From: a virus
Taxonomy: Duplodnaviria > Heunggongvirae > Uroviricota > Caudoviricetes
IMG/VR virus record: IMGVR_UViG_2778261569_000018
Reading direction: 5' to 3' (one strand)
DNA length: 9,572 bases
The notes under the pieces are model-generated. The model was not told the origin of the DNA and did not search any database. It saw nothing but the letters and a program-made list of their open reading frames with translations. The translations under genes and the position numbers were made by a program. Shown here one piece after another: positions 1 to 9,572 of this stretch. Numbering within the stretch: the stretch's first letter is position 1; every line of letters begins with the position of its first letter.

Positions 1-558
<558 letters not shown>

Positions 559-905
559 GACTGAAGATAATGTGATTGCTCCCGCCTGCTCAACACTCTG
601 TGATCGATACGAATCAGTTCGTACTTATCTACTAGGAAGTTGACTGTATCGGCTAAGGGGAATCCCGTTTTCAATATGTACCTTCATAACAGTGTCGTCA
701 ATGCGCTGCGTATCGTTAAGAGTCAGGCTGTAGTGTTTGTCCTGCAGGTATGTAACTAGGGGCTGTCAGACGGTTACAGAGGACTTCGCCACACGTTTTC
801 GGAATATAGGTAAAATTCTCATCGTCGGTTATTCTGCGAATAAAAGAAATTAATTGCGGACGGGTTTTTCGCGGTACGTCACTGTCGTATGGCAGCCAGC
901 GTATC
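559..905 (-). pseudogene. cbtA: CbtA/YkfI/YpjF-family toxin remnant, frameshifted and 3'-truncated by the IS insertion at 558
   Basis: Minus-strand translation of about 628-765 gives QPLVTYLQDKHYSLTLNDTQRIDDTVMKVHIENGIPL, then stop. A different frame from about 653 to 559 gives ADTVNFLVDKYELIRIDHRVLSRREQSHYLQ and runs straight into the IS end. This matches the central region of CbtA/YkfI toxins as recalled. The N-terminal region is not recognisable in any frame and there is no intact ORF of 60 aa or more. Confidence 0.55.
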
Positions 906-910
906 TTGGT

Positions 911-1319
911 TTATGCCCTGCTCCGTATTGTTATGTCGGTCGGTATGGCATAATGCAGTCCTAGCTTTTTCATCGCTGGCAAATGTACCAGTGCGAACCG
1001 AAGGGGGGATTCACCGATCATCCTTTTCGCATACAGCGTGACGGTCTGCTGATGACGGGGATTCAGTTCACCGCTGGTGAACATGAGTTCCAGTTGTTTC
1101 ATCAGCAGTGGAAAGGCTTGGTCCAGATGGTATGCATCCGCATCGCTGAACCGGCCTCTGATACCGGCGCGGTCTGCAAGGTAATGCAACTGATTGCCCT
1201 CCTGCACCAGACGGGCGCCAAAACGGGGTGTCACTGTCACGAACGGTGCAGGGCAGCCCCCACCAGGGGCGGTCGTGATTGTCGTCGGGATAATTTGTTT
1301 CATGGAGCGTGTCTGACAC
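911..1319 (-). pseudogene. cbeA: CbeA (YeeU)-like antitoxin with an internal frameshift
   Basis: N-terminus MSDTLHETNYPDDNHDRPWWGLPCTV is in one frame (GTG start at 1317-1319). The rest, TPRFGARLVQEGNQLHYLADRAGIRGRFSDADAYHLDQAFPLLMKQLELMFTSGELNPRHQQTVTLYAK..., is in a second frame. The shift maps to 1229-1244, where there is an apparent 10-nt insertion containing a GTGACA GTGACA tandem duplication. The open frame also runs past the expected C-terminus to 911. Confidence 0.7.
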
Positions 1320-1398
1320 GATAAAATCCTCACAGAAAATCGGTTAAGAACGGTCAGGTAATGTCGATAATTCTGCTCATCAGAATGCCCTTACTGAC

Positions 1399-1620
1399 TC
1401 AGTTCAGAGTGACGCTCATCAGCCGGACATACGGGCCAAAACTGTCCTTACGGCGTTCTGCAAACACGGCCAGCACACCGGGAATATTCTGCACTTCACG
1501 ACCGGTATACGCCTTAGCACTGCCGTGCCAGCGGTATTTGCCGGTACAGAACGGAAAAAGACGGGATGCAGGATGCTGTTGGTGAATACGCATGGCTTCA
1601 CCACGGGTGATGATTTTCAT
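1399..1620 (-). CDS. yeeT: YeeT/YkfH/YpjJ-family protein (DUF987)
   Basis: 73-aa ORF MKIITRGEAMRIHQQHP...VRLMSVTLN with ATG start, near-identical to my recollection of E. coli YeeT. Sits in the conserved position between the RadC-like gene and the antitoxin. Confidence 0.85.
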   Translation of the reverse strand: MKIITRGEAMRIHQQHPASRLFPFCTGKYRWHGSAKAYTGREVQNIPGVLAVFAERRKDSFGPYVRLMSVTLN

Positions 1621-1688
1621 GGTGTGATACCTCTGAAGACAGAAGATAAAAGTGAAAACAGGTGTGATGTGGTGGTGACGGTGACGGG

Positions 1689-2165
1689 TTAAAGCAGACC
1701 ATGTTCGGCAAAGGAGAAAACCTGGTTGCCACCAACTATCAGATGGTCCGGCACCCGGATATCCACCAGGCCCAGTGCCTGTACCAGACGTTCCGTGATA
1801 AGGCGGTCTGCCTTGCTGGGTGTGACTTCACCGGACGGGTGATTGTGTGCCAGCACCACGGCTGCGGCATTGTGGTACAGGGCGCGTTTAATCACTTCCC
1901 GGGGATGGACTTCCGTGCGGTTGATGGTGCCGGTGAAGAGGGTTTCACCGGCAATCAGCTGATTCTGGTTGTTCAGATACAGCACCCGGAATTCTTCACG
2001 CTCCAGTCCCGCCATGTTCAGAATCAGCCATTCCCGTGCCGTACGGGTGGAGGTGAAGGCCACGCCGGGTTCATGAAGATGGCGGTCCAGGGTTTTCAGG
2101 GCCCGCAGAATGAGGCTGCGCTCTCTGGTTGTCATTTCTCCGGGCAGAAAGGAAAGCTGCTGCAT
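1689..2165 (-). CDS. yeeS: RadC-like JAB-domain protein (YeeS/YkfG/YfjY family)
   Basis: 158-aa ORF with the JAB/MPN metal-binding motif HNHPSG and the conserved RadC-like C-terminus. ATG start at 2163-2165 preceded by AAGGGGG. Confidence 0.88.
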   Translation of the reverse strand: MQQLSFLPGEMTTRERSLILRALKTLDRHLHEPGVAFTSTRTAREWLILNMAGLEREEFRVLYLNNQNQLIAGETLFTGTINRTEVHPREVIKRALYHNAAAVVLAHNHPSGEVTPSKADRLITERLVQALGLVDIRVPDHLIVGGNQVFSFAEHGLL

Positions 2166-2180
2166 TGTTCCGGCCCCCTT

Positions 2181-2666
2181 TCAGTCGATGATGCGCATAA
2201 TGGCGTTGCATTCCGGATGCTGCAGGGCGTAATCCCGCAGCCGGTAATAATGGACCGTCATGGCATAACACTCCGTACGACAGGCATGATGGCTGTACGT
2301 CATCAGACAGGCGGCAATACCGGCGGCTTCCGGGCTCATTTCAGCGCGGTTACCGTTCATGGCATTGAACAGTACCCATGTTTCTCCATCATCTTCATCC
2401 GGTTCTGGAGCCATAAATGCCCCGCCGTTGTTCAGGGTGTACAGATTCCAGATACCACCACAGTAGTCTTCGCAAAGACGGTCCATCCAGCCGAAGATAC
2501 GGGGCTCCAGGGTCACCCACTGTGAAATGAGGCCAAAATGTTGCGGCCAGAAGCTGATGCGCTGTTCATCAGGGACGAGAGTAGCAACCAGCTGAGGTGG
2601 GTTATTCCCTGATGCAGCGGTTACGGAAACAGAAGGTGTGGTGGAATTATGCGTAACGGTTGTCAT
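2181..2666 (-). CDS. Antirestriction protein, KlcA/ArdB-like (YfjX/YafX family)
   Basis: 161-aa ORF; the region WNLYTLNNGGAFMAPEPDEDDGETWVLFN...MTYSHHA matches the island-borne antirestriction family as recalled. Conserved position directly upstream of the RadC-like gene. Confidence 0.8.
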   Translation of the reverse strand: MTTVTHNSTTPSVSVTAASGNNPPQLVATLVPDEQRISFWPQHFGLISQWVTLEPRIFGWMDRLCEDYCGGIWNLYTLNNGGAFMAPEPDEDDGETWVLFNAMNGNRAEMSPEAAGIAACLMTYSHHACRTECYAMTVHYYRLRDYALQHPECNAIMRIID

Positions 2667-2757
2667 GAGATTATTCCTTATAAAAAGTAAATGAATGGAA
2701 GAATGCCCGGGGGAAGGGACAGCCGTGAGTCAGGACTGCGCTTTCAGGGAAAAGGCA

Positions 2758-3576
2758 TCAGCGCATGCTCTCCAGCAGCGTTTCTGCCATCACCCACAAT
2801 GCCCGGTTGAGCTTAATGTCGGTATCGATGCTGTGAATGGCACGGGTGTGGATACGTTTTCCTTTTGCACTGCGACCGGAAAGCCCGCCTTTCAGCATAT
2901 TCTCCTGGATGGTCTGATAAGCACTCCACAGGTCCTTACCGTAATCCTCCCTGCGTCGTGGTGTCAGAATGTCGGCGGTGGTGACGGGCTGATGTTCGTC
3001 ACCATAACGGTAAGTCAGTGCCGCCTGTGCCAGCGCCTGGCGTGCCGGTGGCGGCAGGACCAGCGACTGCATGGCATCACGCTTCTCCTCTATCCGGTCA
3101 AACACACCCACCACCTCGTAAGCCCCTTCAATGACTCTGTCCACCACATTTCCCCGGTGCGGAACACGCACTTCCCCCAGAGACTGACCACAGACGCAGC
3201 CGTTCTGGCAGACGAATCTGAAGTAACCCGGCAGCATCTGGTAGCTGGAGGTACCGTCATGGGAGTTGAGCAGAATAATTTCAGGGACATGTTGTCCGTT
3301 TATCTCCCCGTCACGGCGCAGACGCAGCATGTGTTTGGTATACCCCCGGCGGCCCGGGTCACGTACGCGGGTCTGGCAGGCGAAGAATGGCTGAAAGCCT
3401 TCCCGCTGCAGGCTTTCCAGCACTGTGATGGTGGGGATGTACGAATACCGTTCACTGCGGGAGGTATGCCGGTCTTCCCCAAAAATGCTGGGAACATAGT
3501 GCATCAGTTCTTCATGGGTCAGTGGGCGGTCACGGCGTATCTGATTAATCCGTCCGAAGCGACTGGCTAATCGCAT
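2758..3576 (-). CDS. DUF932-domain protein (YfjQ/YafZ family)
   Basis: The ORF-track frame extends to 3636, but the family N-terminus MRLASRFGRINQIRRDRPL begins at the ATG at 3574-3576, which has AAGGAG 6 nt upstream. The upstream extension overlaps a terminator hairpin. 273 aa as annotated. Confidence 0.8.
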   Translation of the reverse strand: MRLASRFGRINQIRRDRPLTHEELMHYVPSIFGEDRHTSRSERYSYIPTITVLESLQREGFQPFFACQTRVRDPGRRGYTKHMLRLRRDGEINGQHVPEIILLNSHDGTSSYQMLPGYFRFVCQNGCVCGQSLGEVRVPHRGNVVDRVIEGAYEVVGVFDRIEEKRDAMQSLVLPPPARQALAQAALTYRYGDEHQPVTTADILTPRRREDYGKDLWSAYQTIQENMLKGGLSGRSAKGKRIHTRAIHSIDTDIKLNRALWVMAETLLESMR

Positions 3577-3600
3577 AATTAACTCCTTATCTGATAATGA

Positions 3601-3640
3601 AATAAAAGCAAAAAGGCCATGTCCCCGGAGGAACATGGCC
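3601..3640 (-). terminator. Rho-independent terminator downstream of the 312-aa secreted-protein gene
   Basis: Minus strand reads GGCCATGT-(10 nt loop)-ACATGGCC (8-bp perfect stem, 3615-3622 with 3633-3640) followed by TTTTTGCTTTTATT (3601-3614). Confidence 0.6.
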
Positions 3641-3665
3641 TGATGGAATATATTATTGCTGATGA

Positions 3666-4604
3666 TTAATGTTGCTGATTTTTCTCTTTAACTTTTGACC
3701 ATGAGGGGCGTCGGTTGCCGGAAAATTCCTTCTGCATTGACCAGTAACCAATCGGGAACTGCTTCACCAGCACCCCGTTGATACCAATATCGACGGACAG
3801 ATACTGACCGTTGTTGATGCTGCCCTTGCGGATGTACGCATCCGCACTGCAGGTGCCGGTATCATACTGCCGCCATGTTGCGGTATCGCGGGCGGCAACA
3901 TAAAAATCACCGAAAGCACAGCCCGTTGCTGACTTACGATTCAGAACGGCAACGTAATACTTAGTGTTGGCTATAATGGCGCAACTGCTGCTCTGACCGC
4001 CGCAGACCTGCCATAACGTTTTGCTGCTGTCACCCTTAAAGGTCCAGATAGTGTCTGCCGGTGCGCCGTCTGTATGTGTTACTGGCAATGCCGGAGCCTG
4101 CTGCACTGGTGTAACGTCGGGTACGTCGCGGCGTAATAGTCGTGCTTCAGCATCCCCGACATCGCCAAACATGTTTTCCTCTCCGCTGTTGTAATAAAAA
4201 CCGGCAATAACATGTTCTGAGGGGATATACAGTATTTTCAGATAATGGTCACCGCAATTACCCCGCTCACAGACAGACCCCAGCAGCCACTTCTCGTCAC
4301 CAACGACCACCGGAATTAATCCACTGTCAGGGCCGTTCATGGAGCCCTGTTTTCCCGTTAACCCGGTGAGTCCTGCTGACTTCAGCGCATCATCAAGGTC
4401 TTTCTTGAATACCGGGTCGGCATCGTAGATACTGCCCAGAAAGGGGCAGGAACCGTATCCGTTTTCATTATCACCAGCATCAGGATCACAGCGCATTGCA
4501 TCTGCTGCCGTTTTTGCGACACCGGCAGCGTAAACTCCGGTGGAAATAAAACAAAGCGAGGATATCAGTATTATCTGTTTTAATTTACGTAATACAAGAA
4601 ACAT
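3666..4604 (-). CDS. Secreted two-domain protein of unknown function; N-terminal domain carries an Ivy-like C-x4-C-G motif
   Basis: 312-aa ORF with ATG start. N-terminal signal peptide (hydrophobic core IILISSLCFISTGVYA, likely cleavage after VYA; no canonical lipobox). Cys-rich mature protein with VCERGNCGDHYLKILY motif. Terminator immediately downstream. Confidence 0.7.
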   Translation of the reverse strand: MFLVLRKLKQIILISSLCFISTGVYAAGVAKTAADAMRCDPDAGDNENGYGSCPFLGSIYDADPVFKKDLDDALKSAGLTGLTGKQGSMNGPDSGLIPVVVGDEKWLLGSVCERGNCGDHYLKILYIPSEHVIAGFYYNSGEENMFGDVGDAEARLLRRDVPDVTPVQQAPALPVTHTDGAPADTIWTFKGDSSKTLWQVCGGQSSSCAIIANTKYYVAVLNRKSATGCAFGDFYVAARDTATWRQYDTGTCSADAYIRKGSINNGQYLSVDIGINGVLVKQFPIGYWSMQKEFSGNRRPSWSKVKEKNQQH

Positions 4605-4632
4605 GATTATTTTTACTCCATCCTGTTTATAT

Positions 4633-4660
4633 AAAAGAAACGGGCTCCGTGAAGAGCCCT
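4633..4660 (-). terminator. Rho-independent terminator downstream of the 136-aa secreted-protein gene
   Basis: Minus strand reads GGGCTC-TTCACG-GAGCCC (6-bp GC stem, 4642-4647 with 4654-4659) followed by GTTTCTTTT (4633-4640). Confidence 0.5.
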
Positions 4661-4669
4661 GTAAAAAAT

Positions 4670-5080
4670 TTAAAAGTCAATGGTATTAAGACCAACATTC
4701 TTTTTGATGGAGGGATCGTAAATAACAACGGTAAGATGGTCTTTGTCTGAAGAACGGACAAACTTAGCGGTGGCCTCACCACTGCATGTTGCATGACGGT
4801 TATAATCCATCATTTTACCTTTGCTGGTAGCAAGATTGACAACGATGATATAAGGATCATAACAGGCCGAACCTCCCGGACTGCTCAGCAAGGCATATTT
4901 GCCATCATCAGAGACACCAATGAGGCTGCATATCCCGTCTTTTATATCCTCACTTCCGCACATCTGCTCACTTCCATCTTTCACATCAATCACAGTACGG
5001 GGTAATTTAACCTCTGTAGCATTAACTGATGCACTCAACAACAAACCTGAAACTATTAATGACAATATAAACGCTTTCAT
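4670..5080 (-). CDS. Small secreted protein of unknown function
   Basis: 136-aa ORF. Signal peptide MKAFILSLIVSGLLLSASVNA with predicted cleavage before TEV. Four Cys in the mature part. ATG start overlaps the primase stop (ATGA). Local sequence is visibly more AT-rich than its neighbours. Confidence 0.7.
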   Translation of the reverse strand: MKAFILSLIVSGLLLSASVNATEVKLPRTVIDVKDGSEQMCGSEDIKDGICSLIGVSDDGKYALLSSPGGSACYDPYIIVVNLATSKGKMMDYNRHATCSGEATAKFVRSSDKDHLTVVIYDPSIKKNVGLNTIDF

Positions 5081-5895
5081 ATACTCATCCTGTTTATCAT
5101 TACGGGGGATATATTCCTTTTATTCTGGGCGACATATAACAGGTTCCCGGCATCAATCGCCGCCACTGTCAGCGCCTCTGGACGAATTAAATGGGCAGAT
5201 AATGCCGTTGCCAGCCCTTCTGCGATTAAGATGCTCTGTGTTGTTTCTGGCGCGTTTATGGCGTGATATGCCCCCCGCTTTGCTGAACCTGTCAGGAGTC
5301 TTTTTTCACCATGTGATGTAATAGTCTGTGCTGCTGTGACTGCGCCGGATTTATCCACCAGCGCCAGCAACAGAGATCCATCGGGCAACACGGGGAATGT
5401 AAAATCACCTACCCCTTTCGCAACCAGATAATCAGATTTGCCGTTTACAGCCTTTCTGCGCATGTCATCAAACTGACGGGAAAACGTATCCCGTCTTTGT
5501 TGTTCGTCCTTCTCTGCCCTTTTCAGGCGCTCCTGTTCGCGTCGCTGGCGCTCGGTTTCCAGTTGTTCCCGTTTCTGGCTGGTGGCTTCTGGTGTTTCCG
5601 TTGTCCGGTAATCAATACCCAGAACATCAGCGGCAAGAAGCGCCGCCTCTGTTGTGTCGCAGTTATTTACGCGTTTAATTAAATCCAGCCCATCACCAGC
5701 GCCGCACTGATTACAGATGAAGCTACCGCGCCCGTTGTCATCGAACCGGAATCGATCTTTGCCCCCACATGCAGGGCAGGGAGCATGACGGCGCGGAGAG
5801 TCAGGGACATTTATGTTCAGGCAGCCCAGCACATGAGGCCAGTTGTTTTCAGACGCACTGATAACCTGACGGATAAGATCAATGTTTCGCATCAC
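5077..5895 (-). CDS. Primase-like protein: N-terminal zinc ribbon (primase-helicase type), coiled-coil linker, C-terminal Toprim-like region
   Basis: 272-aa ORF. CPACGGKDRFRFDDNGRGSFICNQCGAGDG is a four-Cys zinc ribbon of the kind found at the N-terminus of phage and plasmid primases. Charged linker QKREQLETERQRREQERLKRAEKDEQQRRD. C-terminal ILIAEGLATALS and AIDAG resemble Toprim acidic motifs. Confidence 0.75.
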   Translation of the reverse strand: MMRNIDLIRQVISASENNWPHVLGCLNINVPDSPRRHAPCPACGGKDRFRFDDNGRGSFICNQCGAGDGLDLIKRVNNCDTTEAALLAADVLGIDYRTTETPEATSQKREQLETERQRREQERLKRAEKDEQQRRDTFSRQFDDMRRKAVNGKSDYLVAKGVGDFTFPVLPDGSLLLALVDKSGAVTAAQTITSHGEKRLLTGSAKRGAYHAINAPETTQSILIAEGLATALSAHLIRPEALTVAAIDAGNLLYVAQNKRNISPVMINRMSI

Positions 5896-6250
5896 CGTAC
5901 CCCACGTGGTCTATAGCGTTTGCGATATGGCTAACCAGCATCTGCCACTTGGTTATTCCGTAATCAGTCAGCATGCCATCATTGTTTAGCCACATATCAA
6001 ATTCAGCGGTTGTCGCAAGTTTCCACTTATCGCCGTGGACAGTCCTCATTGCTGGGTACATGAATGCGCAAATCAGATCACAAACATCTGACGGCTTCAG
6101 AGATGTAGTAATGGTGCGTCCCTCTGGCGTCTGAATTGCCATTTTCTCTTCACCAGTAGAATGAAGGTTATGAATCCACACAGCACCAGCAATCTTTGCC
6201 ACCTGCTCTCCGATTGCGGAGCTAAGCGCCATTTCTGCATTTTCACGCAT
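5879..6250 (-). CDS. Hypothetical protein, 123 aa
   Basis: ATG start at 6248-6250. Its 3' end overlaps the primase start by 17 nt, and its start overlaps the upstream gene's stop (ATGCGTGA). Part of a same-strand, tightly packed operon. Confidence 0.6.
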   Translation of the reverse strand: MRENAEMALSSAIGEQVAKIAGAVWIHNLHSTGEEKMAIQTPEGRTITTSLKPSDVCDLICAFMYPAMRTVHGDKWKLATTAEFDMWLNNDGMLTDYGITKWQMLVSHIANAIDHVGYGDAKH

Positions 6251-6584
6251 GAGAACCTCCCGCTACAGTTGCGCCCATGTCATTAACCATGCTTTGCCAT
6301 ATCTCACGCCCGACGTCAGTCAATCCGTCCTTAGTGACGCAACGCTCAAGAAGCTCGATCCCCACGGTTTCCCACTGCGGGTAGAACACTTTCATGGCTG
6401 CCAGTGTGTAGCTATCGATCAGGCTGCGAACGCCTTTTACTCCATTAACGATTTCCACACGTACGGCCTCGCCGTCCGCATCAACCATGAAATAGTCCCC
6501 GCCGCTGGTGGAGGTAATGTGGTTATACAGTGCCGACGCATACTTATTTGCCAGCGCATTCAGTCGGAAATTTTTAGTAATCAT
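6243..6584 (-). CDS. Hypothetical protein, 113 aa
   Basis: ATG start at 6582-6584 with GAGGA upstream. Stop overlaps the next start in an 8-nt ATGCGTGA junction. Confidence 0.6.
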   Translation of the reverse strand: MITKNFRLNALANKYASALYNHITSTSGGDYFMVDADGEAVRVEIVNGVKGVRSLIDSYTLAAMKVFYPQWETVGIELLERCVTKDGLTDVGREIWQSMVNDMGATVAGGSHA

Positions 6585-6594
6585 GGCTCCATCC

Positions 6595-7197
6595 TCAGTG
6601 CGTCACTGGTTCCGCTGGCATGCCGTTTTCATTCAGTTCAGCTATAAAGCTGTTGTGAAGTTCAGCAAGCGTTTCACGACCAAATGGAGTCAGTGCTCCT
6701 TGTTCCACATCCATCATGGCTCTGTAGAAAATGATGGCGCGTTCTGTGCCAGACTCGATGCCAAAACGTTCTATCATCGCTCCCTCAATGTTGTTTGCCA
6801 TAGCGAGGCGCTCTGCTACTGGATACAGCGGCATGGCGACGATGCCGTTGGAATAAACAGCCACTTCGGAAGGATTGCCAGTATCATCAATGATGCTGAC
6901 AGTGCCGTTTTCCTCTCTCATTTCCAGCATGAATACTGTTGCGATCAGCCATCTCCACATAATGACGTTATGCTGTGATGTGTAATCGAAATATCCCTGG
7001 TTGCCGCCATCGGCAATAGCGAGATGTATTGACATACCTTCATCTGGTTTATCGTCATAATCCCCGGCATCCAGACGATTTACGGCATCAATATATGAGA
7101 CGGCCTCAACGCGTTCTGTCATGCCATCGTTGCTGCGGTACATGATGTTTACGCCGTCAGGCGTTGCTTCTGTATGGAAAGTTAAGAAATTATTCAT
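6595..7197 (-). CDS. Hypothetical protein, about 200 aa
   Basis: The ORF-track frame extends to 7302, but the ATG at 7195-7197 (MNNFLTFHTEATPDG...) has GAGG 6 nt upstream and forms the same 8-nt ATGAATAA overlap with the upstream stop seen elsewhere in the operon. Confidence 0.55.
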   Translation of the reverse strand: MNNFLTFHTEATPDGVNIMYRSNDGMTERVEAVSYIDAVNRLDAGDYDDKPDEGMSIHLAIADGGNQGYFDYTSQHNVIMWRWLIATVFMLEMREENGTVSIIDDTGNPSEVAVYSNGIVAMPLYPVAERLAMANNIEGAMIERFGIESGTERAIIFYRAMMDVEQGALTPFGRETLAELHNSFIAELNENGMPAEPVTH

Positions 7198-7411
7198 GTT
7201 TCGCCTCGCCTGAATGATTCTGTAACTCATATTTGCCCAACAATTCGTCCGCTTCCTGAATAGCTTCTGGTACGCCATTGAGCAGTGACATAACCGCGCC
7301 AATCATTAACTTGTCTCTGTTGCTGGGGCTGGCCCCTTCAAGCCAGAACCCTAAAACAGTCTGAACCTGTTCGATGCGACATTGCGCTTCAATGAGCTGG
7401 ATGTTGGTCAT
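7190..7411 (-). CDS. Hypothetical small protein, 73 aa
   Basis: ATG start at 7409-7411 overlapping the upstream stop (ATGA). Stop TAA at 7190-7192 overlaps the downstream start. Confidence 0.55.
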   Translation of the reverse strand: MTNIQLIEAQCRIEQVQTVLGFWLEGASPSNRDKLMIGAVMSLLNGVPEAIQEADELLGKYELQNHSGEAKHE

Positions 7412-7671
7412 TTCGCACTCTCCACATCGATTAAACCGATATCTATCAGGGAGGTAACTTTTTGTAGCCAGCTATTGATTACTGTCGCCTGTTCCCCGCC
7501 CACCGAGGGAACAATCTCATTCATCACATGAACCAGACCTGTGCGCGCTCTGGTAAGCCGTTCAGTCGCGCAATCTGCGGGAGTGAATGTGTCTGGATAT
7601 GGCTCTTCACGCCCCAGCAATGATTCAATTTCCAGCTCACACGGATGACGATAAATTAAGTTGATATTCAT
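7408..7671 (-). CDS. Hypothetical small protein, 87 aa
   Basis: ATG start at 7669-7671 overlapping the upstream stop (ATGA). Confidence 0.55.
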   Translation of the reverse strand: MNINLIYRHPCELEIESLLGREEPYPDTFTPADCATERLTRARTGLVHVMNEIVPSVGGEQATVINSWLQKVTSLIDIGLIDVESAK

Positions 7672-7862
7672 TTTTCACCCCCAAGAATTACCAGCTCGGC
7701 ACGGGCATCGTTAACCAAAGATGAGCACGCTTTAATCGCATCCACGACATCAGTAGCGTCCATTTCTTCAGCCGAAAGACTGACAGCAACCAGGACAGCC
7801 GCTGCTTGCTCGATTAATTGAAGTGCGGACGTAAGGCGAGGGGTATTAATTGAGTTATTCAT
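7668..7862 (-). CDS. Hypothetical small acidic protein, about 64 aa
   Basis: The ORF-track frame extends to 7919, but the ATG at 7860-7862 (MNNSINTPRL...) makes an 8-nt ATGAATAA overlap with the upstream gene's stop at 7855-7857. Confidence 0.5.
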   Translation of the reverse strand: MNNSINTPRLTSALQLIEQAAAVLVAVSLSAEEMDATDVVDAIKACSSLVNDARAELVILGGEK

Positions 7863-8073
7863 TGGTTGCCCCCGTTTTTCCTGGCATTTCGCCACCTTCC
7901 AGCAGGAAATGAACGTCACGAACGGCGAGATCCAATATCGCGAGTAACGCCTTCAGTCTTTCGTCTCGTGAGGGAGAGTTGCTCACCAGAATGTCGTTAA
8001 TCACTTCTGTCAGTGTGATGATCTGGCTTGTGCGTTCGAGGGGATCCATATGCACATCGTAGGTTTTAATCAT
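7855..8073 (-). CDS. Hypothetical small protein, 72 aa
   Basis: ATG at 8071-8073 (MIKTYDVHMDPLERTSQ...) preceded by GGAGGTG with a 4-6 nt spacer. It is the C-terminal part of the 355-aa ORF-track frame, but the strong internal RBS and the rare-codon run upstream argue for a separate gene. Confidence 0.55.
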   Translation of the reverse strand: MIKTYDVHMDPLERTSQIITLTEVINDILVSNSPSRDERLKALLAILDLAVRDVHFLLEGGEMPGKTGATNE

Positions 8074-8260
8074 GTGCCACCTCCATGCGGATACGACCAG
8101 CAAAAAAGCAGATGTGATCGCGCACCAGAGAACGGCGAGCATCGCGTTCAGACTCGGCAGCAATATGATGAATTTTGGCGGTAATTGTCGGGCAATCGCG
8201 GCGAACTGCGGCGATAATCCAGATAAATTGCGGTTTTTGGGTAGGGGTAGTAGCCAGCAT
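8066..8260 (-). CDS. Hypothetical small protein, 64 aa
   Basis: ATG at 8258-8260 ([22 protein letters not shown]...) preceded by AAGGAGG with a 7-nt spacer. Codon usage in this frame is good, while the alternative frame here has CTA CTA CCC CTA. Stop TAA at 8066-8068 overlaps the next start (ATGATTAA). The ORF-track start at 8407 is a TTG. Confidence 0.55.
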   Translation of the reverse strand: MLATTPTQKPQFIWIIAAVRRDCPTITAKIHHIAAESERDARRSLVRDHICFFAGRIRMEVAHD

Positions 8261-8922
8261 GTGGCAGCCTCCTTGTACTGGGAGTTCTTCCCACCACCGG
8301 AGCTGCGAAACTCGCTGGTGGTGGACTGAACAGAGTTCGCAGTACCGGCGTACAAGGAAACCGGCCAGCCTTTCGGCTGCCCTGTCCAGCCCACCATAAT
8401 TTTGCAAGCGACGCGGATTATAACCGCATCACTGAAAAAAGTGTGAGTCTGGCTAACGGCACAAAAAAAGACGCTCGGCGCGTCATGTGTCGCCTCGTAC
8501 ATTTCCGGGCTGCGAAACCCGGCACCCGTTTTATGAGGTGCCTTATAACCATAAACCGTGTTGCCGCATAACGGCAAGCTCTTTTTTATGGACTCCGAAA
8601 ACTCACTATTGGAAGCACCAGATGCACAATACATCGCGCTCATTTCGTTAACGTCGCGCGTGTGGACGAAGGTTTTTGTGGAGTCACTACGCGAGCAGAG
8701 AAAGCCATCTACGACCAGAAATTCTCTGGCGCAGCCGCCGACCTTCTCAACGCTAACACCATCGACCGTAATTTCTGACATAGTTAAGGCATCCGCTCCC
8801 ACCACCAGAAAATGATAAACTTTGCTTGTATCTGCTGTATTAATGCCAGACTTTGCTGTCATATTGCTGGATTTTGGCGACATACCAGCCAGTGAAAATA
8901 TCTTCTTCTGGACGGTTAGCAT
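8254..8922 (-). CDS. Hypothetical protein of about 220 aa, first gene of the operon; 3' end unresolved because the frame has no stop before 7855
   Basis: ATG at 8920-8922 preceded by GGAGG with a 7-nt spacer. Plausible codon usage from 8922 to about 8260. No family recognised. Confidence 0.4.
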
Positions 8923-9014
8923 TTGTTAACCTCCGCGAACTCCTTCATGAAGCGCGCCAGCGGTTGTACGCATGGCGATTGATACCCGTCGCGATAAAAC
9001 GTCACTCGGTTGTG

Positions 9015-9572
<558 letters not shown>

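What the first reader, a model, noticed from the sequence alone, without database searches (positions are those of the whole stretch)
559..1333. Toxin-antitoxin module decayed in two steps: a 10-nt insertion in the antitoxin and frameshift plus IS truncation of the toxin
The antitoxin N-terminus matches CbeA but shifts frame at 1229-1244, where the sequence GTTC GTGACA GTGACA looks like a 10-nt insertion with a 6-nt tandem duplication; that is a real mutation signature rather than a homopolymer miscall. The toxin remnant is readable only in two short frame-shifted stretches, and its 3' end is replaced by the IS terminus at 558. A toxin lost together with its antitoxin is the expected outcome once the antitoxin is compromised. 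The rest of the back-end module (DUF932, antirestriction, RadC-like, YeeT) is intact.
Basis: partly seen in the sequence, partly recalled or inferred. Interest (0 to 1): 0.45.

Follow-up and report, generated by a model that had tools for sequence, protein, structure and literature searches.

The report
Long-dead three-gene toxin-antitoxin relic

Summary
A 10-nt insertion (window 1235-1244, GTTCGTGACA) shifts a CbeA-like antitoxin out of frame. The CbtA-like toxin is readable in two frames. An IS629/IS1203 end abuts it at 558. The "two steps" reading is wrong. Intact relatives carry antitoxin, a conserved 76-aa gene, then toxin. Against these the window also shows a 2-nt deletion (1006/1007) and a ~172-nt deletion (983/984). 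That deletion removed the antitoxin 3' end and the 5' half of the middle gene, leaving a remnant at 879-983. The toxin has a TGG>TGA stop (766-768), an extra base (654-656) and a 9-nt deletion. The IS is a simple insertion with an imperfect 3-bp target duplication. In sibling genomes the last 60 nt of the toxin lie beyond it. About 35 of 5,426 complete E. coli genomes carry the relic, and RefSeq already marks the antitoxin, and in most carriers the toxin, as pseudogenes. The deletions and the toxin frameshift are in every carrier examined. The stop codon and the IS vary between strains. The toxin has lost 14 of 47 family-invariant residues, while the antitoxin 5' part is otherwise identical to an insertion-free allele. 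The toxin was therefore probably dead long before the 10-nt insertion. Ordinary; low interest.

The parts
1..558 (+). 3' part of an IS629/IS1203 (IS3 family) copy. The transposase OrfB C-terminus is at 25-516. The terminal inverted repeat ...CCCGGGGCGGTTCA ends at 558.
   Evidence: 100% identical to annotated IS1203 copies in E2863 and strain 14614. Sequence read.
559..561 (-). Left copy of the 3-bp target-site duplication. It reads GTC on the minus strand. The ancestral target and the right-hand copy read GAC.
   Evidence: E2863 junctions are CTTCAGTC|IS|GACCGTAG, against uninterrupted CTTCAGACCGTAG in RM9387. IS629 duplicates 3-4 bp (PMC3271280).
561..822 (-). CbtA-family toxin pseudogene, first ~87 of 106 codons, with ATG at 822-820. 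Lesions: a 9-nt in-frame deletion at 779/780, TGG>TGA at 766-768 (codon 19), one extra base within 654-656 (+1 frameshift), and the IS insertion after 561.
   Evidence: Pfam PF06755 matches in two frames at 41 and 36 bits. Alignment to intact toxins. Strain A39 keeps TGG.
823..878 (-). Spacer between the middle gene and the toxin. It is homologous to the 59-61-nt spacer of intact three-gene loci.
   Evidence: blastn and MAFFT alignments.
879..983 (-). Remnant of the conserved 76-aa middle gene: its last 34 codons plus the TGA stop at 879-881 (FASDEKARTALCHTDRHNNTEQGINQDTLAAIRQ*). It carries a 12-nt in-frame deletion at 901/902.
   Evidence: BLASTP to P0017 gives 65% identity over 37 residues, E 8e-7. 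The reciprocal blastn from the intact gene finds this 90-nt stretch at 83%, E 1e-16. Alignment.
983..984 (-). Junction of a ~172-nt deletion. It removed the last ~17 codons and the stop of the antitoxin, and the first ~38 codons of the middle gene.
   Evidence: MAFFT gap at columns 345-516 against six intact three-gene loci. blastn homology breaks at this point.
984..1319 (-). YeeU/CbeA-family antitoxin pseudogene with GTG start at 1319. Codons 1-~95 are cbeA-like. After YAK the sequence is of the three-gene type. A 2-nt deletion lies at 1006/1007.
   Evidence: Pfam PF06154 scores 114 bits over profile 8-83/101 only. dN 0.07 and dS 0.32 to K-12 cbeA, against dS above 1 to three-gene-type antitoxins. 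The 2-nt gap is seen.
1235..1244 (-). 10-nt insertion GTTCGTGACA. Placement is ambiguous by 2 nt. It creates the tandem GTGACA GTGACA and shifts the frame after codon 26.
   Evidence: Absent from the otherwise identical 5' allele of Z1322HEC0010 and from Z1322HEC0006. Present in RM9387, A39 and 34 genomes in all.
911..1333 (-). Chimeric 140-codon ORF created by the lesions. It joins an out-of-frame N-terminus, the antitoxin core, and an out-of-frame read-through into the middle-gene remnant. Probably not functional.
   Evidence: ORF list. RefSeq calls the locus 'frameshifted; incomplete; missing C-terminus'.
1399..3576 (-). Intact upstream back-end genes: DUF987/YeeT-like (1399-1620), RadC-like JAB (1689-2165), antirestriction (2181-2666) and DUF932 (2758-3576).
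   Evidence: Annotated as complete CDS in the 100% identical E2863 region. ORFs.

Best explanation
Window 559-1333 is the neutral wreck of a three-gene variant of the type IV CbeA/CbtA (YeeU/YeeV) module: antitoxin, a conserved 76-aa gene, then toxin. It sits at the distal end of a thrW-associated integrative island of E. coli O111-type strains. Nothing in it is expected to work.

The toxin has a nonsense codon, a +1 frameshift and an IS629 insertion. It has also drifted at residues that are invariant in the family.

The antitoxin has lost its C-terminal strands through a 2-nt deletion and a ~172-nt deletion, which fused it to the 3' half of the middle gene.

The antitoxin 5' two-thirds is a cbeA-like segment, apparently brought in by recombination with a paralogous island. 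This segment later acquired the 10-nt insertion.

Shown: every lesion and its coordinates, the three-gene ancestry, the distribution of lesions among sequenced relatives, and the simple-insertion nature of the IS event in sibling genomes.

Inferred: the order of events. The toxin and the 3' lesions are old. The 10-nt insertion is more recent. W19* arose after the split from the A39 lineage. The IS629 insertion came last.

Also inferred: the locus is non-functional.
For: Three-gene ancestry:
- Ten loci from E. coli and Salmonella (L010-L019) all show the order CbeA_antitoxin, 76-aa ORF, CbtA_toxin. Homologues of the 76-aa protein also come from Citrobacter, Enterobacter, Hafnia and Pantoea.
- The middle gene starts 2-5 nt after the antitoxin stop and has dN/dS of 0.10-0.16.
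- Its remnant in the window is 65% identical at protein level (E 8e-7). A reciprocal blastn recovers it at 83% (E 1e-16).

Lesions:
- They are mapped in the MAFFT and blastn alignments.
- The Pfam antitoxin match ends at profile position 83 of 101. The toxin match is split over two frames.

Age of the toxin lesions:
- 14 of 47 residues invariant in seven intact toxins are changed here, against 0-6 in leave-one-out tests of the intact toxins.
- The nearest intact toxin DNA in 5,426 genomes is only ~70% identical.

Youth of the 10-nt insertion:
- The 5' allele without it is otherwise identical over 369 nt.

Distribution among strains:
- 35 genomes carry the relic.
- In the five carriers whose sequence was aligned, the 2-nt deletion, the 172-nt deletion and the +1 frameshift are all present. 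The 99-100% identity of the other carriers implies the same for them.
- A39 keeps TGG at codon 19.
- Only 8 O111 genomes have the IS at this site. Other strains have IS629 at three other sites in or next to the relic.

Annotation:
- RefSeq labels the identical sequence 'frameshifted; incomplete' and 'frameshifted; internal stop'.
Against: - The order of the oldest events cannot be resolved. No sequenced relative carries only some of the shared lesions.
- Strain Z1322HEC0006 lacks the 10-nt insertion, but its 5' part is a recombinant with about 8% SNPs. It therefore does not give a clean ancestral state.
- The high divergence of the toxin could partly reflect a missing close intact relative rather than drift. 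The relative-rate test was significant with two outgroups (p of 5e-6 and 4e-5) but not with YkfI or YpjF (p of 0.11 and 0.22).
- Non-function is inferred from sequence alone.
- A 140-codon ORF remains open across the antitoxin core.
Confidence: 0.85

Rival explanations
1. This was a two-gene TA module that decayed in two steps. A 10-nt insertion first disabled the antitoxin. The toxin was then lost by a frameshift and IS truncation, as a consequence.
For: The 10-nt insertion, the toxin frameshift and the IS junction all exist.
Against: - At least eight lesions are present, and the ancestor had three genes.
- The antitoxin C-terminus is missing in every carrier aligned, including one without the 10-nt insertion.
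- The toxin frameshift is shared by all carriers aligned.
- The toxin is heavily diverged, while the antitoxin 5' part is pristine apart from the insertion.
- Deleting all three antitoxin paralogues in K-12 has no growth cost, so losing the antitoxin does not force loss of the toxin (PMC5371832).
Confidence: 0.05
2. The chimeric ORF at 911-1333 (or the insertion-free 132-aa version in Z1322HEC0006, which RefSeq annotates as a YeeU-family antitoxin) still makes a working orphan antitoxin. It would buffer CbtA-family toxins encoded elsewhere in the genome.
For: - The ORF is open for 140 codons and keeps Pfam CbeA_antitoxin profile positions 8-83 at 114 bits.
- Antitoxins of this family cross-neutralise non-cognate toxins, and orphan homologues such as YagB exist (PMC5371832).
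- These genomes carry 2-4 other loci of this type ('places in record').
Against: - The last 18 profile positions (the conserved ...ADTLGSCGYVYIAVYP segment) are replaced by out-of-frame read-through.
- The N-terminus is out of frame, and no obvious ribosome-binding site was seen by eye.
- The three SNPs that separate A39 from the window inside the ORF are all non-synonymous.
- RefSeq marks it as a pseudogene.
Confidence: 0.07
3. The indels are sequencing or assembly artefacts, and the genes are really intact.
For: One lesion lies next to a short homopolymer: the 2-nt deletion is beside CCCCCC. The extra base at 654-656 lies in CCCCTTAGCC.
Against: The same sequence is found at 99-100% identity in 34 independent complete genomes from different laboratories and platforms. 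The 10-nt insertion, the 172-nt deletion, the TGA and the IS are not homopolymer errors.
Confidence: 0.02

Closest known systems
CbeA/CbtA (YeeU/YeeV) type IV toxin-antitoxin of cryptic prophage CP4-44, E. coli K-12
   Same: - The same Pfam families: PF06154 antitoxin and PF06755 toxin.
- The same gene order, downstream of DUF932, antirestriction, RadC-like and DUF987 genes.
- The antitoxin 5' 100 codons are close to K-12 cbeA, with dN 0.07 and dS 0.32.
   Different: - Both genes are pseudogenes here.
- The toxin is only 45% identical to CbtA.
- The 3' part of the antitoxin and the toxin belong to a different, three-gene lineage.
- A remnant of a third gene lies between them.
YafW/YkfI (CP4-6, also at thrW) and YfjZ/YpjF (CP4-57) of E. 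coli K-12
   Same: The same family. The repaired toxin is 55-56% identical to YkfI and YpjF and is similarly short, at 106 aa. The relic sits in an island at the same thrW-proA site as CP4-6.
   Different: The K-12 pairs are intact and experimentally toxic and neutralising (PMC5371832). They have a 20-nt spacer and no middle gene.
Three-gene CbeA-like / 76-aa ORF / CbtA-like arrays (e.g. E. coli USDA-ARS-USMARC-51688, WP_021569960 / WP_021569959 / WP_021569958)
   Same: These are the nearest intact relatives of the window's antitoxin 3' end, middle-gene remnant, spacer and toxin, at 71-76% DNA identity. Gene order and spacer are the same.
   Different: Those loci are intact and are followed by DUF5983, DUF957 and DUF4942 genes. 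The window has only fragments, and those downstream genes are absent from its relatives.
IS629/IS1203 insertional inactivation and IS-adjacent deletions in enterohaemorrhagic E. coli
   Same: An IS3-family element with TGAACCGCCCCGGG ends and a 3-bp target duplication, inserted in a prophage-like element. Neighbouring strains show different IS629 sites and IS-bounded deletions or inversions.
   Different: Nothing unusual, except that the left copy of the target duplication has one mismatch (GTC against GAC).

Membership tests
Type IV TA CbeA/CbtA (YeeU/YeeV) family | Toxin with a CbtA_toxin domain (PF06755) | tested here: met
   Fragments score 41.0 and 36.3 bits in two frames, against a cut-off of 25.
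Type IV TA CbeA/CbtA (YeeU/YeeV) family | Antitoxin with a complete CbeA_antitoxin domain (PF06154) | tested here: not met
   114 bits, but only profile positions 8-83 of 101 are covered. The C-terminal segment is deleted or out of frame.
Type IV TA CbeA/CbtA (YeeU/YeeV) family | Uninterrupted reading frames for both genes (a functional member) | tested here: not met
   Antitoxin: 10-nt insertion, 2-nt deletion, 172-nt deletion. Toxin: TGA at codon 19, +1 frameshift, IS629 insertion.
Type IV TA CbeA/CbtA (YeeU/YeeV) family | Antitoxin gene upstream of the toxin on the same strand, at the end of a DUF932 / antirestriction / RadC / DUF987 back-end module | tested here: met
   ORF map and RefSeq annotation of the identical region.
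Type IV TA CbeA/CbtA (YeeU/YeeV) family | The toxin inhibits FtsZ/MreB, and the antitoxin counteracts it without binding the toxin | not testable with these tools
   This needs expression experiments. The property is known for the K-12 members (PMC5624674, PMC5371832).
Three-gene variant (antitoxin, 76-aa ORF, toxin) | A homologue of the 76-aa protein lies between the antitoxin and the toxin | tested here: met
   Present as a remnant only, at window 879-983. It is 65% identical to P0017 residues 40-76 (E 8e-7), and the reciprocal blastn gives E 1e-16.
Three-gene variant (antitoxin, 76-aa ORF, toxin) | The antitoxin C-terminus, spacer and toxin are closest to three-gene loci rather than to two-gene loci | tested here: inconclusive
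   DNA supports it. The window aligns to L010 across the antitoxin 3' end (GSH.Y motif), the middle-gene 3' end, the spacer and the toxin at 71-76%. The best non-relic blastn hit is a three-gene locus. Protein identity does not discriminate: the repaired toxin is 55-56% identical to L010/L013 and also 55-56% to the two-gene YkfI/YpjF.
IS629/IS1203 (IS3 family) | Terminal inverted repeats, OrfAB transposase and a 3-4-bp target duplication | tested here: met
   100% identity to annotated IS1203. The end TGAACCGCCCCGGG is at 558. In E2863 the flanks are GTC and GAC around target GAC, a 3-bp duplication with one mismatch. The 3-4-bp duplication is stated in PMC3271280.

The most novel reading that the evidence does not exclude
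The relic shows that some CbeA/CbtA modules are three-gene operons. The conserved, family-less 76-aa protein is made of four predicted helices. Its gene is under purifying selection and starts 2-5 nt after the antitoxin stop, in all ten E. coli and Salmonella loci examined; homologues of the protein occur across Enterobacteriaceae. It could be a genuine third component of a type IV TA system, for example a regulator, adaptor or second antitoxin. My two literature searches found no description of it. The window itself would only be a fossil of such a system.
Probability: 0.3. Interest if true: 0.45.

Novelty: new member of a known kind. Interest (0 to 1): 0.2.

Why it matters
There is little at stake for the finding itself. 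It is one more pseudogenised CbtA/CbeA locus in an IS-rich E. coli island, and RefSeq already flags the antitoxin as a pseudogene in every annotated carrier, and the toxin in most.

It is useful in three ways.

1. It corrects the record. The locus has many lesions, and there is no evidence for antitoxin-first decay. In some genomes RefSeq names two toxin fragments of 40 and 51 aa as proteins, and in one genome it names a C-terminally fused 132-aa antitoxin as intact.

2. It is a worked example of how recombination between paralogous islands can make one half of a dead gene look young.

3. It points to an uncharacterised 76-aa gene that is consistently wedged between CbeA-like and CbtA-like genes. 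That gene is worth one experiment.

Tried and rejected
1. Global DNA alignment of the antitoxin 3' end and spacer to the K-12 cbeA-cbtA, yafW-ykfI and yfjZ-ypjF loci. It gave a weak, gap-ridden match that suggested a second degenerate antitoxin 3' end. I rejected this once the three-gene locus L010 showed that the region is the 3' half of a different gene.

2. Function of the 76-aa middle protein.
- Pfam, NCBIfam, PHROGs, PADLOC and PDB sequence profiles gave nothing significant.
- The AlphaFold2 model reached only pLDDT 69, and Foldseek against PDB gave no match below E = 1.
- One source labels a homologue 'DUF1380'. Pfam scanning did not reproduce this label.

3. dN/dS for the toxin. dS is saturated (at or above 1) against all intact relatives, and that run contained a one-base error in the appended tail. 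I therefore used counts at invariant residues and relative-rate tests instead. The relative-rate result depends on the outgroup.

4. Search for a complete genome that contains the whole window. None was found.

5. Literature search for a described three-component CbtA system. Nothing specific was found.

6. Sequencing artefact as an explanation. Rejected, because 34 independent assemblies agree.

Full report
**Context**

The window is E. coli DNA. Positions 1-5125 are 100% identical to the thrW-proA integrative island of O111-type strains such as E2863. All island genes lie on the minus strand:
- DUF932 (2758-3576)
- antirestriction (2181-2666)
- RadC-like JAB (1689-2165)
- DUF987/YeeT-like (1399-1620)
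- a YeeU/CbeA-family antitoxin
- a CbtA-family toxin

An IS629/IS1203 copy ends at 558, and a second, inverted copy starts at 9015. RefSeq annotates the four upstream genes as intact. It annotates the antitoxin as 'frameshifted; incomplete; missing C-terminus'.

**Checking the observation**

The minus-strand frame that starts at GTG 1319 reads VSDTLHETNYPDDNHDRPWWGLPCTV. This matches K-12 CbeA at 21 of 26 residues. It then runs into GTTC GTGACA GTGACA at 1244-1229. After that the CbeA-like sequence (TPRFGARLVQEGN...) continues in another frame.

Strain Z1322HEC0010 has a 5' allele that matches the window at every other aligned base (369 of 379 columns). It lacks exactly ten bases here, reading CACC|GTGACACCCC. 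The insertion is therefore real. It can be placed at 1235-1244, 1234-1243 or 1233-1242. It does create a tandem GTGACA.

The insertion is present in 34 independent complete genomes: O111:H8/H-, some records labelled O157:H7, and strains including RM9387, EC102 and A39. That excludes a sequencing error.

The toxin is indeed split over two frames. Pfam CbtA_toxin profile positions 3-60 are in one frame and 53-89 in another. The IS end is at 558.

A distant blastn with the 3' part of the locus hit strain USMARC-51688. That strain has three genes in a row: a YeeU-family antitoxin of 111 aa, a 76-aa 'hypothetical protein' that starts 5 nt after the antitoxin stop, and a CbtA-family toxin of 125 aa.

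The 76-aa protein has 54 clusters of homologues in Salmonella, Citrobacter, Enterobacter, Hafnia, Pantoea and E. coli. In all ten loci I retrieved (L010-L019, from E. coli and Salmonella) the order is CbeA_antitoxin, this ORF, CbtA_toxin. Its dN/dS is 0.10-0.16, so it is a real gene. It has no Pfam, NCBIfam, PHROG, PADLOC or PDB match, and its modest AlphaFold model has no Foldseek match.

Aligning the window to six such loci gives a consistent picture:
- After the conserved ...TLYAK, the window's antitoxin follows the three-gene type (…GSH.Y…) but with a 2-nt deletion at 1006/1007.
- Homology stops at 984 and resumes at 983 inside the middle gene. A deletion of about 172 nt removed the last ~17 antitoxin codons, the stop codon, and the first ~38 codons of the middle gene.
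- Window 879-983 encodes FASDEKARTALCHTDRHNNTEQGINQDTLAAIRQ*. This is 65% identical to residues 40-76 of the E. coli protein P0017 (E 8e-7), with a further 12-nt in-frame deletion.
- The reciprocal search, with the intact middle gene as query, recovers the same 90-nt remnant at 83% identity in about 32 genomes. Only 8 of 5,426 complete E. coli genomes hold a full-length copy.
- In line with this, the Pfam antitoxin match ends at profile position 83 of 101.

The 140-codon ORF at 911-1333 is therefore a chimera. It consists of an out-of-frame N-terminus, the antitoxin core, and an out-of-frame read-through into the middle-gene remnant.

**The toxin**

The toxin starts at ATG 822. Relative to intact relatives it has:
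- a 9-nt in-frame deletion at 779/780;
- TGA in place of the family-invariant Trp codon, at 766-768 (strain A39 still has TGG);
- one extra base within 654-656 (CTTAGCC where CT.GCC is expected);
- the IS629 insertion after 561.

It is nevertheless aberrant. It differs at 14 of the 47 positions that are invariant in seven intact toxins (for example NDTPF>NDTQR and GF>VL). In leave-one-out tests the intact toxins differ at 0-6 such positions.

Relative-rate tests against L013 are significant with CbtA or L012 as outgroup (28 vs 3 and 29 vs 5 unique changes). They are not significant with YkfI or YpjF. The nearest intact toxin DNA in the complete-genome set is only about 70% identical.

**The IS event**

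In E2863 the junctions read CTTCAGTC|IS629|GACCGTAG. The uninterrupted sequence in RM9387 reads CTTCAGACCGTAG. This is a simple insertion with a 3-bp duplication of GAC, whose left copy carries one mismatch. IS629 makes 3-4-bp duplications (PMC3271280).

In E2863 the remaining 60 nt of the toxin pseudogene lie on the far side of the IS. The IS therefore interrupts the gene rather than replacing its end. The window begins inside the IS, so this cannot be verified for this genome.

Only eight O111 genomes have the IS at this site, and in strain 11128 it is inverted. Other strains have IS629 in different places:
- downstream of the toxin (strain 05-3004);
- in the toxin 5' part (strain 2159);
- in the middle-gene remnant (strain 95NR1).

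**Order of events**

Five carriers were aligned (checked): the window, RM9387, A39, Z1322HEC0006 and E2863. All five share the 2-nt deletion, the ~172-nt deletion and the toxin +1 frameshift. The 99-100% identity of the remaining carriers implies the same.

A39 has the 10-nt insertion but keeps TGG. Z1322HEC0006 has TGA but lacks the insertion. However, its first ~380 nt differ from the window at about 8% of sites while the rest is nearly identical. Its 5' part has therefore been replaced by recombination.

The window's own antitoxin 5' part is cbeA-like, with dN 0.07 and dS 0.32 to K-12 cbeA. Against three-gene-type antitoxins its dS is above 1. From YAK onward the sequence is of the three-gene type. 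The gene is therefore a recombinant. Its 5' segment is 'young', being identical to an insertion-free allele apart from the insertion. Its 3' segment and the toxin look old.

The most economical reading is:
1. the toxin and the 3' lesions came first;
2. a cbeA-like 5' segment was then acquired;
3. the 10-nt insertion followed;
4. W19* arose after the split from the A39 lineage;
5. the IS629 insertion came last.

This order is an inference. The oldest steps cannot be ordered among themselves.

The lesion distribution gives no support for this, and the experimental literature weakens the premise. In K-12, deleting all three antitoxin genes of this family did not affect growth, the genes are weakly transcribed, and antitoxins cross-neutralise non-cognate toxins (PMC5371832). 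The 'two steps' count is wrong, because at least eight lesions are present.

**Rival explanations**

- A functional orphan antitoxin encoded by the chimeric ORF cannot be excluded. It is unlikely because the conserved C-terminal segment is missing.
- An assembly artefact is excluded by the agreement of 34 assemblies.

**Verdict**

This is an ordinary, multiply-hit pseudogene cluster that RefSeq already flags as such. The only mildly new element is that it descends from a three-gene CbeA / 76-aa / CbtA arrangement. My two literature searches found no description of that arrangement. The window preserves only a fossil of it.

Noticed in passing
window 879-983; intact copies at L010:3291-3521, L013:4001-4231, L012:4001-4231: A conserved, uncharacterised 76-aa gene sits between the CbeA-like antitoxin and the CbtA-like toxin in all ten loci examined (E. 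coli and Salmonella); homologues occur in at least six enterobacterial genera. It starts 2-5 nt after the antitoxin stop and has dN/dS of 0.10-0.16. It has no family or fold assignment. It is full-length in only 8 of 5,426 complete E. coli genomes.
   Followed up: partly
window 5126-9014: A 3.9-kb P4-like segment, running from a truncated TOPRIM/DUF927 primase through small ORFs and an ash-family gene to a truncated DUF4222 gene. It is joined to the island at 5125/5126 with no IS at that junction. E2863-type genomes lack exactly this segment plus the right-hand IS. The junction at 5125/5126 is not found in any of 5,426 complete E. coli genomes.
   Followed up: partly
window 1-558 and 9015-9572: Two IS629/IS1203 copies in inverted orientation bracket 8.4 kb. 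In strain 14614 the right-hand copy has a clean 3-bp duplication (GTG, window 9012-9014). Strain 14614 looks like this arrangement after an IS-adjacent deletion of window 559-5291. E2863 looks like it after loss of 5126-9572. Strain 11128 has the IS inverted, with the island flipped towards thrW. The window may therefore be the intermediate that links these structures.
   Followed up: partly
L001:9654-9882 (= window 561-747): In E2863-type genomes RefSeq annotates two overlapping toxin fragments of 40 and 51 aa (WP_114078714.1, WP_311395789.1) as 'TA system toxin CbtA family protein' CDS rather than as a pseudogene. In Z1322HEC0006 the C-terminally fused 132-aa antitoxin (WP_406865597.1) is annotated as an intact YeeU-family antitoxin.
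   Followed up: yes
L004:3082-3451 (Z1322HEC0010): This is the only genome with the insertion-free version of the window's antitoxin 5' allele. Its cbeA is itself frameshifted by one base at GCGAAAAGGG, exactly where the sequence switches to canonical cbeA/cbtA. It sits next to an intact cbtA. This would be a natural case of an intact toxin with a broken cognate antitoxin.
   Followed up: no
window 3666-4604 and 4670-5080: Two minus-strand ORFs of 312 and 136 aa lie upstream of the back-end module. Both have hydrophobic, signal-peptide-like N-termini. Both are annotated only as hypothetical proteins.
   Followed up: no
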